A DNA stretch of 64,000 bases, from IMG/VR virus record IMGVR_UViG_3300045988_077276, positions 1-64,000 of that record. One strand, 5' to 3'. A model generated the notes under the pieces. It was not told where the DNA came from, did no database searches, and was given only the letters and a program-made list of their open reading frames with translations. Every line of letters begins with the position of its first letter. The first letter of the stretch is position 1. This stretch comes from a virus. Shown here one piece after another: positions 12,447 through 14,300 of the stretch. The translations under genes were made by a program, and so were the position numbers.

Positions 12447-12475
12447 TTGACTTATGTTTGTATTTATGTTATTAT
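12447..12475 (+). promoter_or_regulatory. promoter of the RNA (tRNA/ncRNA) operon
   Basis: TTGACT 12447-12452, a 17 nt spacer ending in TGT, TATTAT 12470-12475. Confidence 0.55.
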
Positions 12476-13129
12476 AATACTGTAGTTAAGTGCTACGCCT
12501 CCTTTCTTAACATAGCCGATGCAAGTGGTTGCCCCTACTTGCGTTGGCACACATGGACTGTTGCTGGGTTATGGTCAAAATTTGCATAAATTGTCATGTC
12601 TGACCGACAGGTTCGATTCCTGTGCAGTTCTACTTTTTCGCTACTGCAAGCGAACAAACGTTTATCGAAAGTGTGCTTGTTGTACACATCCAAAAAGACA
12701 ACACGTGTTAATTGATTACACGACAACAAATCAAACATACGGTGCTTGCTGCCGTCACTCAGTAAGCGTTATATGTGACGAGAAAACATATCAGAGATAA
12801 CTGTAAACCATCACTAGAGATGTAAAAAAAGCAAGTTTCTGATAGCCTTGATAAAACTAACAGGGTTGTGCCATTCCATAATCGCACCGCAAGACAATGC
12901 GACAACAATCATATGTAGAAATGTAGGTTTTATTACCATACTACGAACTACGAATTTCTTACTGCCGTCAGACCAGACGTTAAAATCCGCAGTCGTTGAA
13001 GTGCGATAAGCAACGAAGTCTATAGACATCTACCGCCGATGCGTATAGACGTATACACACATGAAGACACCTAGATTGCAATCTTTGGGTGGTTGAATGA
13101 TGCAACAAGGTTTGCATGGCGGTAGACAT
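12476..13129 (+). ncRNA. candidate large structured non-coding RNA (class unknown; ROOL/GOLLD-type context)
   Basis: There is no SD-preceded ORF here. Many hand-foldable helices exist, e.g. 12994-12998/13011-13015, 13100-13105/13112-13117, and a long-range 9 bp helix TCTACCGCC 13029-13037 / GGCGGTAGA 13118-13126. It lies in a phage tRNA operon. Confidence 0.4.
12555..12631 (+). ncRNA. non-canonical tRNA-like element (acceptor + T arm, no recognisable anticodon arm)
   Basis: GGACTGT (12555-12561) pairs with GCAGTTC (12624-12630), including 2 G-U pairs. The T arm is ACAGG-TTCGATT-CCTGT (12607-12623). I could not fold a 5 bp / 7 nt anticodon arm, and no CCA is encoded. Confidence 0.3.
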
Positions 13130-13188
13130 GGAGAGTTAGCTTAGTAGGTAAAGCATTATAGACGTTGGTTCGACCCCAACATTCTCCA
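13130..13188 (+). ncRNA. tRNA-like minihelix lacking the anticodon arm (element A, 59 nt)
   Basis: Acceptor GGAGAGT/ATTCTCC, D arm GCTT-AGTAGGTA-AAGC, a 9 nt linker ATTATAGAC, T arm GTTGG-TTCGACC-CCAAC. No CCA is encoded. Confidence 0.6.
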
Positions 13189-13287
13189 CAAGGTAAATCC
13201 ACTATGGGTCGCAACTATGGTGGTCGGCATGAGCGGGTCGCCGTTAGAGAGGAGTCAGTCTCGAGGTGCCTCCTCACCTACTCACAT

Positions 13288-13404
13288 GGGGAATTAGTTT
13301 AACGGTAAAACACTATGAGGGGTGAAACACTGGTTCGATTCCAGTAAAGTGATGGTTCACAGCACTATTAGTAGAAGATATTGGTTCGACCCCAATATTT
13401 CCCG
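13288..13404 (+). ncRNA. tRNA-like element B: acceptor, D arm and T arm, with a 68 nt insert in place of the anticodon arm
   Basis: Acceptor GGGGAAT/ATTTCCC, D arm GTTT-AACGGTA-AAAC, T arm ATTGG-TTCGACC-CCAAT. The insert (13312-13379) carries a second T-arm-like hairpin ACTGG-TTCGATT-CCAGT. Confidence 0.5.
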
Positions 13405-13508
13405 TAATTACAATTAAATCTGCTGTGGGTCGCTACCATAGTAGTCGGAAGTGGGTATCTTTCGTTAAGGGGTGAACGGACGCTAGCTGTTTATCCGATA
13501 CCTGCCGA

Positions 13509-13585
13509 AGCGGAGTAGTCCAATGGAAGAGACACTGGTCTCATAAGCCAGTATAGTACGGGTTCAAGTCCCGTCTCCGCTCCCA
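13509..13585 (+). tRNA. tRNA-Met (or Ile2) anticodon CAT, CCA encoded
   Basis: Acceptor AGCGGAG/CTCCGCT, anticodon stem-loop CTGGT-CTCATAA-GCCAG, T arm ACGGG-TTCAAGT-CCCGT, CCA at 13583-13585. Confidence 0.85.
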
Positions 13586-13588
13586 TAC

Positions 13589-13678
13589 GGAGGGTTGTCA
13601 GAGTGGTTTATTGAGCCTCTTTGCTAAAGAGGTGTTGTTTAATAGCAACCACAGGTTCGAATCCTGTACTCTCCTCCA
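13589..13678 (+). tRNA. tRNA-Ser anticodon GCT (class II, long variable arm), CCA encoded
   Basis: Acceptor GGAGGGT/ACTCTCC, anticodon arm CCTCT-TTGCTAA-AGAGG, variable arm GTTG...CAAC, T arm ACAGG-TTCGAAT-CCTGT. Confidence 0.9.
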
Positions 13679-13683
13679 CTTAT

Positions 13684-13758
13684 TCTTGGGTAGTTCAATG
13701 GTAGAGCGTCTGGCTGTTAACCAGAATGTTGGGGGTTCGAGTCCCTCCCCAAGAGCCA
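13684..13758 (+). tRNA. tRNA-Asn anticodon GTT, CCA encoded
   Basis: Acceptor TCTTGGG/CCCAAGA, anticodon arm TCTGG-CTGTTAA-CCAGA, T arm GGGGG-TTCGAGT-CCCTC. Confidence 0.9.
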
Positions 13759-13761
13759 CAT

Positions 13762-13851
13762 GGAAAGTTGGCAGAGTCTGGTTTATTGCATCGGTCTTGA
13801 AAACCGAAGAACAGTAATGTTCCGTGAGTTCAAATCTCACACTTTCCTCCA
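13762..13851 (+). tRNA. tRNA-Ser anticodon TGA (class II), CCA encoded
   Basis: Acceptor GGAAAGT/ACTTTCC, anticodon arm TCGGT-CTTGAAA-ACCGA, variable arm GAAC...GTTC, T arm GTGAG-TTCAAAT-CTCAC. Confidence 0.9.
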
Positions 13852-14030
13852 TTCGTTGTATCAACGATACCATAGCCACGATACGTAATGGTACGCCATC
13901 GTATCACCGAATGGGTTACTTAAGGGTTTCTCATTCGGCTGGCATACTTCGTGTTGATTGGGTAAATTCCCAAGATACACGCATAATTTTTCCTCCTGTT
14001 GACTTTGGGTTAAAATCCAAAGTCATGGAT

Positions 14031-14087
14031 GCACACATAGTTTAACGGTAAAACAAATTAATGATGGTTCAAATCCATCTGTGTGCA
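14031..14087 (+). ncRNA. tRNA-like minihelix lacking the anticodon arm (element E, 57 nt)
   Basis: A perfect 7 bp acceptor GCACACA/TGTGTGC, a D arm GTTT-AACGGTA-AAAC identical to that of element B, an 8 nt linker AAATTAAT, T arm GATGG-TTCAAAT-CCATC. No CCA is encoded. Confidence 0.6.
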
Positions 14088-14244
14088 GCTAGCTAAAATC
14101 CAGCGGTAGTTATCAGATGCCGTTGGTATAAAATCCCGTACCGAGGGGTATTGGTCGTTGAGTTGCGGCATCGTGAAATATGGAACGTAAGCCATTCCGC
14201 AACAAAAATATCATCATAAGTGTTTATTCTGAACACAAACAAAA

Positions 14245-14300
14245 GAAGACATCTAAGTATTTTTACCTCCTTTCGTACTTAGGTGTCTTCTTTTTGTTTC
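14245..14300 (+). terminator. strong rho-independent terminator closing the RNA operon
   Basis: A 15 bp stem, GAAGACATCTAAGTA (14245-14259) with TACTTAGGTGTCTTC (14276-14290), followed by TTTTTGTTTC. Confidence 0.8.

What the first reader, a model, noticed from the sequence alone, without database searches (positions are those of the whole stretch)
12447..14300. A 1.85 kb promoter-to-terminator RNA-only operon in which canonical tRNAs are the minority
The interval is bounded by a TTGACT/TATTAT promoter (12447-12475) and a 15 bp-stem terminator (14245-14300). It has no SD-preceded ORF. Only about 330 nt are the four canonical, CCA-encoding tRNAs, which are clustered at 13509-13851 with 3-5 nt spacers. 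The remaining ~1.5 kb folds by eye into many hairpins, and a TAAAATCC loop motif recurs (12.98, 14.01, 14.10 and 14.14 kb).
Basis: seen in the sequence. Interest (0 to 1): 0.7.

Follow-up and report, generated by a model that had tools for sequence, protein, structure and literature searches.

The report
Phage tRNA operon packed with tRNA mimics
A probable Veillonella phage carries a conserved 1.85 kb RNA-only operon in which four real tRNAs sit among anticodon-less tRNA look-alikes and structured small RNAs that display ribosome-like anti-Shine-Dalgarno sequences, an arrangement I could not find described for phages.

Summary
Window 12447-14300 is a promoter-to-terminator unit with no conserved ORF and four CCA-encoding tRNAs (13509-13851).

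The remaining ~1.5 kb is not spacer. About 30 related phage contigs from IMG/VR keep it as a mosaic under purifying selection. One 96-nt element is 81-96% identical, while four-fold sites of the neighbouring helicase gene are only 46-52% identical.

It contains four tRNA-shaped modules that cannot decode:
- two with no anticodon arm (13130-13188, 14031-14087; Rfam tRNA 48 and 52 bits);
- one with a ~60-nt insert in place of the arm (13288-13404);
- one acceptor/T-arm minihelix (12555-12631).

It also contains a four-way-junction element, two paralogous ~100-nt elements, and three invariant CCUCC motifs, one of them in the terminator loop.

Every conserved non-tRNA block ends 0-6 nt before a tRNA or tRNA-like 5' end. 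The best reading is a polycistronic precursor cut by RNase P and RNase Z at tRNA-shaped punctuation. This would release tRNAs plus small RNAs, some probably binding ribosome-binding sites.

That mechanism is inferred, not shown. Decoy and scaffold readings remain open. No Rfam family, GenBank phage or paper that I searched matches the non-tRNA parts.

The parts
12447..12475 (+). Sigma-70-type promoter: TTGACT, 17-nt spacer, TATTAT, with TG upstream of the -10. The inferred transcription start is near 12482.
   Evidence: Hexamers conserved in all clades.
12482..12554 (+). 5' leader: a small 5' hairpin, a single-stranded stretch CCUCCUUUCUUAACAUAG (12498-12515), a 14-bp hairpin (12515-12548), then ACACAU.
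   Evidence: Fold -28.1 kcal/mol, z -4.6. The 18-mer is invariant in all three clades while the flanking hairpins differ in sequence.
12555..12631 (+). M0: tRNA-like minihelix with a 7-bp acceptor stem and a perfect T-arm (ACAGG UUCGAUU CCUGU). The centre is non-canonical and no CCA is encoded.
   Evidence: In clades 2 and 3 the homologue is GGGUCGU...GAGACCC with T-stem UUGGG/CCCAA, which is compensatory. Rfam gives only 17 bits.
12632..13028 (+). Partly variable structured block, rich in indels at 12740-12880. It contains one TAAAATCC copy at 12981.
   Evidence: No reliable consensus fold was obtained.
13029..13126 (+). E115: a four-way-junction RNA. P1 is 9 bp and invariant. P2-P4 carry compensatory changes. 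The junction strands GAUGA, GAACAU-AAGA and GUCGAAUG are largely conserved. It is always followed by a 4-5-nt spacer (ACAU in the window) and then a tRNA or tRNA-like 5' end.
   Evidence: 30 pairs, 8 with changes on both sides. Present in 29 of 30 loci. 81-96% identical against 46-52% at helicase four-fold sites. z -4.9.
13130..13188 (+). TL1: tRNA-like with acceptor stem, D-arm and T-arm but no anticodon arm, and no encoded CCA (A then CAA).
   Evidence: Rfam tRNA 48.4 bits, above the gathering score of 29. The minimum-energy fold is an armless cloverleaf. Homologues are 57, 64 or 116 nt.
13189..13287 (+). A1 element: UAAAUCC, then a 9-bp hairpin with a GUCGCAA loop, then a second domain.
   Evidence: (family D4). 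The hairpin covaries across loci and the element always lies between two tRNA or tRNA-like modules.
13288..13404 (+). TL2: long tRNA-like. The outer acceptor, D and T arms enclose a ~60-nt insert that holds a second T-arm-like hairpin and a 4-bp YGGU hairpin in place of the anticodon arm.
   Evidence: Homologues score 50-55 bits on Rfam tRNA (L014, L021). Clade-3 copies end in CCA.
13405..13508 (+). A2 element, a paralogue of A1.
   Evidence: (D4, 79% identity). z -3.1.
13509..13851 (+). Four canonical CCA-encoding tRNAs: Met-CAU, Ser-GCU, Asn-GUU, Ser-UGA.
   Evidence: The cassette varies from 1 to 6 tRNAs among relatives.
13852..14030 (+). Mid RNA: a UACG-capped hairpin, a CCGAAUGG hairpin whose loop carries a near-invariant AAGGG (AUGGG in one locus), a covarying hairpin, single-stranded CAUAAUUUUUCCUCCUG (13981-13998), and a T-arm-like hairpin (14000-14026).
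   Evidence: conserved in all clades. z -4.7. The CCUCC lies 38-39 nt upstream of TL3 in the loci of all three clades that I checked.
14031..14087 (+). TL3: anticodon-arm-less tRNA-like with no encoded CCA.
   Evidence: Rfam tRNA 51.8 bits. Found at the same position in 28 of 30 loci, at 56-75 nt, with the anticodon region absent, a mini-hairpin or an odd loop. 99.4% of cells paired, 11 of 16 pairs changed on both sides.
14088..14240 (+). 3' domain: two UAAAAUCC-plus-hairpin units (14094, 14129), a GUUGCGG/CCGCAAC hairpin and a GUGUU/AACAC hairpin.
14241..14300 (+). Intrinsic terminator. Its 14-16-nt loop displays UUUUUACCUCCUUUCG (14260-14275).
   Evidence: The loop motif UUU(A/C)CCUCCUUUC (one residue shorter in two loci) is kept in all 27 distinct terminators, which carry four unrelated stem sequences.

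Best explanation
This is an early/middle non-coding operon transcribed by host RNA polymerase. It belongs to a family of ~68 kb siphophages, probably infecting Veillonella. A precursor of about 1.8 kb is made from 12482 to about 14300.

The precursor carries eight tRNA-shaped modules: four decoding tRNAs and four anticodon-defective look-alikes (M0, TL1, TL2, TL3). I propose that these serve as cleavage punctuation. RNase P would cut at each 5' end. RNase Z would cut after the discriminator of the CCA-less look-alikes.

This processing would release the tRNAs plus at least five conserved structured small RNAs: the leader, the block ending in E115, A1 and A2, the mid RNA and the 3' RNA. Three of these expose an invariant CCUCC motif that copies the 3' end of 16S rRNA. 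In the mid RNA the motif sits 7 nt after a CAU, so the stretch is complementary to a Shine-Dalgarno, spacer and AUG. These RNAs would most likely pair with ribosome-binding sites of mRNAs.

Shown here: the unit, its non-coding nature, its conservation, the folds and the motif invariance. Inferred: the processing and the anti-RBS action.
For: - Unit boundaries and absence of an ORF.
- Purifying selection: E115 is 81-96% identical, while helicase four-fold sites are 46-52% identical between clades. Blocks are conserved in about 30 contigs.
- tRNA-like modules: Rfam tRNA scores above gathering for TL1 and TL3, with the anticodon arm skipped in the alignment. Acceptor, D and T stems covary while the anticodon region is 0-19 nt.
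- Canonical tRNAs encode CCA and the look-alikes mostly do not.
- Punctuation logic: every conserved non-tRNA block ends 0-6 nt before a tRNA or tRNA-like 5' end, and 6 of 8 sites have U at -1.
- E115 is followed by TL1, TL1-long, an unclassified 71-nt tRNA-like or a real tRNA-Ser in different phages, with the spacer before it kept at 4-5 nt (ACAU, AUAU, AAUAU and similar).
- A elements always lie between two such modules.
- The anti-SD motif is kept in the leader, mid RNA and terminator loop across three clades whose stems differ.
- From established knowledge: RNase P and the CCA-adding enzyme accept acceptor/T-arm minihelices, RNase Z acts on CCA-less 3' ends, and C-rich loops of Firmicute sRNAs such as RNAIII pair with SD sequences.
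Against: - There are no transcript or cleavage data.
- The phage's own genes use strong GGAGG Shine-Dalgarno sequences, so a generic anti-SD RNA would also hit phage mRNAs.
- No extended complementary target exists in the 64 kb window.
- Punctuation alone does not explain why D-arm and T-loop sequence are kept so tightly in TL1 and TL3.
- Clade-3 TL1-long carries an encoded CCA, which hints at a role beyond a cleavage signal.
- TL sequences were collected with a scan that required intact acceptor and T stems, so the paired percentage for those two helices is partly by construction. The D stem and the positional conservation are not.
Confidence: 0.45

Rival explanations
1. The anticodon-less tRNA look-alikes are decoys. 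They would bind host factors that recognise the tRNA elbow and acceptor end, such as tRNA-cleaving defence nucleases, toxins or modification and repair enzymes. They offer no cleavable anticodon loop, so they would protect host and phage tRNAs.
For: - Selection keeps the acceptor, D and T parts, while the anticodon region is deleted or scrambled differently in each clade.
- The operon sits in an early region with other counter-defence genes: a Tad2-like domain protein and two DNA methylases.
- The canonical tRNA cassette turns over quickly, as expected in an arms race.
- Similar 56-61-nt elements occur in or beside the tRNA arrays of unrelated phage contigs.
Against: - No cognate nuclease has been identified.
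- TL1 is dispensable and is replaced by a real tRNA at the same junction in several phages.
- Clade-2 TL3 lacks the D-loop GG needed for a normal elbow.
- This reading is compatible with the punctuation model rather than exclusive of it.
Confidence: 0.2
2. The transcript, or its ~650-nt 5' block, stays intact as one large structured RNA or RNP scaffold. It would resemble GOLLD and ROOL RNAs, which lie next to or around phage tRNA islands.
For: - The location is the same kind as reported for GOLLD and ROOL.
- There are many conserved helices, T-loop-like motifs and a four-way junction.
Against: - No GOLLD, ROOL or other Rfam match appears even at E up to 10.
- Modules are gained, lost, duplicated and swapped among phages with 98% identical helicases.
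- No supported long-range pairing was found.
Confidence: 0.1
3. The region is a decaying tRNA array. The look-alikes and solo T-arms are pseudogenes and the rest is spacer without function.
For: - T-arm relics are scattered through the region.
- The TL3 position holds near-complete tRNA shapes in some phages (L014 and L030 are called tRNA-Asn by ARAGORN).
Against: - There are compensatory changes in 11 of 16 TL3 pairs.
- E115 and the CCUCC motifs are near-invariant while neutral sites are close to saturation.
- Positions are conserved in 28 of 30 loci.
Confidence: 0.05
4. There is hidden coding. The CCUCC at 13992 is really the Shine-Dalgarno sequence of a minus-strand 17-aa micro-ORF (AGGAGG, 7 nt, AUG; 13983 down to 13930).
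For: A perfect RBS is present, and a 17-codon ORF occurs in about 20 of the 29 loci that could be examined, with conserved MR(V/I)S and TR(S/C)MP(A/S)E ends.
Against: - The ORF is frameshifted in five loci and reduced to 1-10 codons in clade 3.
- Its middle changes by hairpin-type compensatory substitutions, not synonymous ones.
- No minus-strand promoter lies nearby.
- The other two CCUCC motifs have no usable start codon on the minus strand (my reading).
Confidence: 0.05

Closest known systems
Phage T4 tRNA gene cluster with the stable RNAs RNAC and RNAD (species 1 and 2)
   Same: Small stable non-tRNA RNAs of unknown function encoded in a phage alongside its tRNA genes. [quoted passage not shown] That they lie inside the tRNA cluster and are matured from the same precursors is my own recollection of the older T4 literature.
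   Different: No sequence similarity outside the tRNAs to any of 50,697 GenBank phage records. Here the non-tRNA part is about 80% of the unit, and it includes anticodon-less tRNA look-alikes and anti-SD motifs.
GOLLD and ROOL large ornate RNAs
   Same: Large structured non-coding RNAs of phages and prophages located at tRNA islands, sometimes with tRNAs inside.
   Different: No covariance-model match. The architecture is modular and mosaic rather than one fixed fold.
tRNA-like processing handles: MALAT1-mascRNA and murine gammaherpesvirus 68 tRNA-miRNA units
   Same: A non-decoding tRNA-shaped element is cut by RNase P and RNase Z to define the ends of neighbouring non-coding RNAs (my own knowledge). 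The TL1-A1 and TL2-A2 repeat here has the same layout.
   Different: Those are eukaryotic systems. Here the setting is bacterial, the modules lack the whole anticodon arm, and no cleavage has been shown.
Bacterial and phage Y RNAs (YrlA) with a tRNA-like domain
   Same: A non-coding RNA that mimics the tRNA acceptor, D and T parts.
   Different: The topology differs, because in Y RNAs the ends form the Ro-binding stem. The YrlA model scores 15.6 bits against a gathering score of 69. I did not identify a Ro/TROVE gene in the window, though only about 30 of its ORFs were scanned. Only the distant relative L034 carries a DUF2828 plus vWA-like gene in this slot.
C-rich-loop regulatory RNAs of Firmicutes, such as S. 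aureus RNAIII
   Same: An unpaired C-rich motif, including one in a terminator-hairpin loop, that pairs with Shine-Dalgarno sequences (my own knowledge).
   Different: Here the motif copies 9-12 nt of the 16S 3' end and occurs three times in a phage tRNA operon. Targets are unknown.

Membership tests
Phage tRNA gene array or operon | Two or more tRNA genes on one strand with short spacers in a phage genome | tested here: met
   Four tRNAs with spacers of 3, 5 and 3 nt. Phage gene context.
Decoding tRNA (for TL1 and TL3) | 7-bp acceptor stem, D-arm and T-arm with a UUCRANY loop | tested here: met
Decoding tRNA (for TL1, TL2, TL3 and M0) | 5-bp anticodon stem with a 7-nt loop | tested here: not met
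   The Rfam alignment skips 15 model positions. ARAGORN does not call them. Lengths are 56-59 nt, or there is a ~60-nt insert.
Decoding tRNA | 3' CCA, encoded like the neighbouring tRNAs or added later, and aminoacylation | not testable with these tools
   CCA is not encoded in the window's four look-alikes. Post-transcriptional addition is unknown.
GOLLD (RF01998) and ROOL (RF03087) | Match to the family covariance model | tested here: not met
   No hit at gathering threshold or at E up to 10.
GOLLD and ROOL | Phage or prophage location next to a tRNA island | tested here: met
Y RNA (YrlA, RF02553) | Model match and a partner Ro/TROVE protein | tested here: not met
   15.6 bits against a gathering score of 69. 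tblastn of the L034 DUF2828 protein finds nothing in the window. The window was not tested with a Ro60 or TROVE query.
tmRNA | tRNA-like domain plus a tag reading frame | tested here: not met
   ARAGORN reports no tmRNA.
Hammerhead ribozyme (for E115) | CUGAUGA and GAAA core around three helices | tested here: not met
   E115 has CCGAUGA...CGAAC, but also four helices, C in place of U4 and no Rfam hammerhead hit.
RNase P / RNase Z punctuated precursor | Cleavage at the tRNA-like ends in vivo | not testable with these tools
   Only substrate-like anatomy is shown.
Anti-SD base-pairing sRNA | Unpaired C-rich motif conserved independently of the flanking stems | tested here: met
Anti-SD base-pairing sRNA | Demonstrated pairing with, and repression of, target mRNAs | not testable with these tools
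   No extended target in the window.

The most novel reading that the evidence does not exclude
Phages deploy a previously unrecognised class of anticodon-arm-less tRNA mimics together with RNAs that mimic the 16S 3' end. Both are processed from one operon. Their role would be to reprogramme or shield the host translation apparatus, for example as uncleavable decoys for tRNA-targeting immunity and as sponges for ribosome-binding sites. Related mimics occur in the tRNA arrays of unrelated phages.
Probability: 0.25. Interest if true: 0.85.

Novelty: new variant of a known kind. Interest (0 to 1): 0.66.

Why it matters
Phage tRNA genes are usually read as codon-usage helpers or as replacements for tRNAs destroyed by host defence. 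Here about 80% of a strongly conserved tRNA operon is something else: tRNA shapes that cannot decode, and structured RNAs that carry the ribosome's own anti-Shine-Dalgarno sequence.

If the modules are processing signals, this is a bacterial and phage counterpart of the tRNA-like punctuation known from eukaryotes. If they are decoys or sponges, it is a new RNA-based way to manipulate translation or evade tRNA-targeting immunity.

The finding also shows that standard tRNA finders miss a class of conserved elements in phage tRNA arrays. It supplies defined elements (TL3, E115, the CCUCC loops) that can be tested directly in a human-associated Veillonella phage system.

Tried and rejected
- **Loose metagenome pattern for E115.** Only one of the 120 loci returned held the element. 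The single metagenome scan was therefore wasted.
- **First viral pattern for armless tRNA-likes.** It mostly caught the variable arms of type II tRNAs. A stricter pattern found only five stretches outside the family, which group into three lineages. The real frequency of such elements is unknown.
- **Alignment-based search for more distant helicase relatives.** It returned essentially the same contigs.
- **Consensus fold of the whole 5' block.** It was unreliable because of indel-rich segments, so no long-range structure is claimed.
- **E115 as a hammerhead or T-box.** There are superficial matches (CCGAUGA...CGAA, GGUGGU), but the helix number and core bases are wrong and there is no Rfam hit.
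- **+ strand ORF 12519-12800 and the minus-strand 17-aa ORF.** Both were rejected as conserved coding sequences.
- **DUF2828 protein of L034 against PDB sequences.** Nothing was found, and the protein could not be submitted for structure prediction.
- **Search for specific mRNA targets of the three CCUCC regions within the window.** None was found.
- **Literature searches.** No description of anticodon-less tRNA-likes or anti-SD mimics in phage tRNA operons was found.
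Full report
**1. The observation**

- A TTGACT-17-TATTAT promoter with an upstream TG lies at 12447-12475.
- A long hairpin at 14241-14294 has 19-nt arms that are 95% complementary. It folds at -25.3 kcal/mol with z = -8.4 and is followed by a U-run.
- A second, perfect promoter (TTGACA-17-TATAAT) at 14307-14335 then drives the next gene.
- ARAGORN finds four tRNAs at 13509-13851 (Met-CAU, Ser-GCU, Asn-GUU, Ser-UGA). All encode CCA.
- No + strand ORF of 50 aa or more with a Shine-Dalgarno sequence exists between the helicase gene (11273-12430, DnaB_C) and the gene starting at 14342.
- The longest ORF, 12519-12800, is broken by 1-nt indels in close relatives.
- TAAAATCC is enriched: 12 copies against 3.8 expected, with four on the + strand inside the unit.

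**2.

Rfam's tRNA model also scores 13130-13188 (48.4 bits) and 14031-14087 (51.8 bits) above its gathering score of 29. In both alignments the whole anticodon arm is skipped.

My own scan looked for a 5-bp T-stem, a UUxxA loop and a 7/7 acceptor stem. It finds eight tRNA-shaped modules in the window:
- the four real tRNAs;
- the two armless elements, TL1 and TL3;
- a 116-nt element at 13288-13403 (TL2), whose acceptor, D and T arms enclose a ~60-nt insert with a second T-arm-like hairpin;
- a 76-nt acceptor/T-arm element at 12555-12630 (M0).

None of the four look-alikes encodes CCA. Single-sequence folding reproduces the armless cloverleaves.

**3. Relatives and host**

The helicase retrieves 34 loci from IMG/VR contigs of about 65-72 kb, some of them from Human Microbiome Project samples. 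They fall into three clades at about 98, 82 and 80% helicase identity, plus one distant member at 52%.

No GenBank phage is close. Only the canonical tRNAs find matches.

The large terminase is 63% identical to a locus in Veillonella sp. 3310. The phage also carries a YadA-like protein and has about 38% GC. Veillonella is therefore the likely host. This rests on one hit.

**4. Conservation**

The RNA region is present in every locus except the distant one, as a mosaic of blocks at 70-95% nucleotide identity. The canonical tRNA cassette varies from 1 to 6 genes even among phages with 98% identical helicases.

Neutral divergence is high. Four-fold degenerate sites of the helicase gene are 46-52% identical between the window and clades 2 and 3. 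Anything shared across clades is therefore under selection.

Shared across clades are:
- the promoter;
- the leader string CCUCCUUUCUUAACAUAG;
- M0;
- a 96-nt element, E115 (13029-13126);
- the A element;
- the block between the last tRNA and TL3;
- TL3 itself;
- the terminator loop.

**5. Structure support**

*TL3.* It occupies the same position, 220-280 nt before the next gene, in 28 of 30 loci. In clade 1 it is 56-57 nt with no arm. In clade 3 it is 63-64 nt with a CCC-loop-GGG mini-hairpin. In clade 2 and a few other loci it is 72-75 nt with abnormal loops.

I aligned 21 distinct sequences, four of them from unrelated phage contigs. In that alignment 99.4% of cells pair and 11 of 16 pairs changed on both sides. 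The covariation score is 0.66, against 0.22 in shuffles and 0.11 or less when the partners are slid.

A caveat applies. The acceptor and T stems were selection criteria for these sequences. The D stem, which is 100% paired with one compensatory pair, and the positional conservation were not.

*E115.* It folds as a four-way junction with an invariant 9-bp P1 and compensatory changes in P2-P4.

*Terminator.* It has four unrelated stem sequences around one conserved loop motif, UUU(A/C)CCUCCUUUC, which is one residue shorter in two loci.

*A element.* Its 9-bp hairpin covaries around a GUCGCNA loop.

*3' domain.* It shows modest covariation, within clade 1 only.

**6. The CCUCC motifs**

On the + strand of the 64 kb window, CCTCCTTTC occurs only at 12498 and 14266.

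A third conserved copy, UUUUUCCUCCU, lies 38-39 nt upstream of TL3 in the loci of all three clades that I checked. It is preceded by CAU at a 7-nt distance. The stretch is therefore the exact complement of a model ribosome-binding site, AGGAGG-AAAAAUU-AUG.

The leader and terminator copies match 10-12 consecutive nucleotides of the Firmicute 16S 3' end, CACCUCCUUUCU. That 16S sequence is from my own knowledge.

The leader copy is predicted to be single-stranded between two hairpins. The terminator copy is in the loop.

**7. Interpretation**

Every conserved non-tRNA block ends 0-6 nt before a tRNA or tRNA-like 5' end. Six of the eight sites have U at -1, and four share the ACAU|G context.

In different phages E115 is followed by TL1, TL1-long, an unclassified 71-nt tRNA-like or a genuine tRNA-Ser. 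The spacer before it is kept at 4-5 nt (ACAU, AUAU, AAUAU and similar). A tRNA shape of some kind therefore seems to be what that position requires.

UAAA(A)UCC motifs lie 5-11 nt after the look-alike 3' ends (13194, 13415, 14094).

Established enzymology is relevant here. RNase P and the CCA-adding enzyme accept acceptor/T-arm minihelices. RNase Z cuts CCA-less 3' trailers. Together these make a tRNA-punctuated precursor the most economical reading. It would release the tRNAs and several small RNAs, three of which present an anti-SD seed.

I put this at about 0.45, because no cleavage or binding has been shown. In addition, the phage's own genes use GGAGG Shine-Dalgarno sequences.

**8. Rivals**

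- *Decoy role for the armless mimics (0.2).* It fits the retained elbow and acceptor parts and the free-running anticodon region. It also fits the counter-defence neighbourhood of a Tad2-like domain protein and methylases.
- *Single large scaffold RNA like GOLLD or ROOL (0.1).* It fits the location. It does not fit the absence of a model match or the module shuffling.
- *Pseudogene decay (0.05).* It is contradicted by covariation and by conservation well above the neutral level.
- *Minus-strand 17-aa ORF behind the middle CCUCC (0.05).* It has a perfect RBS. However, it is frameshifted or truncated in nine of 29 loci, and it varies by hairpin-type compensatory changes.

**9. Beyond this family**

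Armless elements of 56-61 nt that pass Rfam's tRNA threshold occur in three other phage lineages in IMG/VR.
- In a 129 kb contig (L042), two of them lie in or beside a tRNA array. One is preceded by a hairpin whose loop reads ACCUCCCUUUCU.
- In L123, one sits next to tRNA-Leu and a CUA-anticodon tRNA.

The survey is incomplete, because only exact patterns could be scanned.

**10. Novelty**

The closest precedent is the T4 tRNA cluster with RNAC and RNAD, whose function is still unknown. The general idea of tRNA-like processing handles is known from eukaryotes and herpesviruses.

I found no description of conserved anticodon-less tRNA mimics or of 16S-3'-end mimics in phage tRNA operons. I therefore rate this a new variant of a known kind, of fairly high interest, with the mechanism still to be shown.

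Noticed in passing
L034:7138-9226 (distant relative, helicase 52% identical): The slot between the helicase gene and the downstream gene holds no tRNAs. Instead it has a promoter, about 610 nt of non-coding sequence that keeps the leader layout (hairpin, UUCCUUUC, hairpin, UACAU), and a 491-aa DUF2828 plus DUF7788/vWA-like protein. That domain layout recalls Ro60 (TROVE plus vWA), but this was not verified.
   Followed up: partly
window 13930-13998, minus strand: A perfect RBS (AGGAGG, 7 nt, AUG) precedes a 17-codon ORF that is present in about 20 of the 29 loci examined. It is frameshifted or truncated in the others and overlaps a covarying RNA hairpin.
   Followed up: yes
L042:10447-11617, minus strand (129 kb IMG/VR contig): An unrelated phage tRNA array contains two armless tRNA-likes (58 and 61 nt; Rfam 43.9 and 38 bits), a 115-nt tRNA-like with an insert, and a hairpin loop reading ACCUCCCUUUCU just upstream of one armless element.
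   Followed up: partly
L123:57-353: An armless tRNA-like (56 nt, 48.8 bits) lies next to tRNA-Leu and a tRNA with a CUA anticodon that ARAGORN calls 'Pyl'. This is a possible amber suppressor, so the phage may recode stop codons.
   Followed up: no
Loci L001-L033, tRNA cassette: The canonical tRNA content ranges from 1 to 6 genes (Ser, Asn, Thr, Tyr, Leu, Gln, Phe, Trp, Met) among phages whose helicases are 97-98% identical. tRNA-Ser(UGA) is almost always kept. Some loci also carry a 68-nt 'Cys-like' element with a 5-nt anticodon loop and no CCA.
   Followed up: partly
window 21754-22527: A phage ORF has YadA head and YadA anchor domains (trimeric autotransporter adhesin type). This is consistent with a diderm host such as Veillonella.
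   Followed up: no
window 8796-9584: An ORF has a Thoeris anti-defence 2 (Tad2)-like domain. It lies upstream of a C5 cytosine methylase (10068-10988) in the same early region as the RNA operon.
   Followed up: no
window 34000-42000: This region has low GC (28-34%) and many ORFs shorter than 130 aa. Terminator-like hairpins are in excess (13 found against 4.3 expected). It looks like an accessory or moron-type gene region.
   Followed up: partly
window 14342-15220: The conserved downstream 292-aa protein has no Pfam match. It carries Cys clusters at both ends (CPDG...C..QC....C and C..YC.....CC), which recalls Cas4/RecB-type Fe-S nucleases (my reading, not tested).
   Followed up: no
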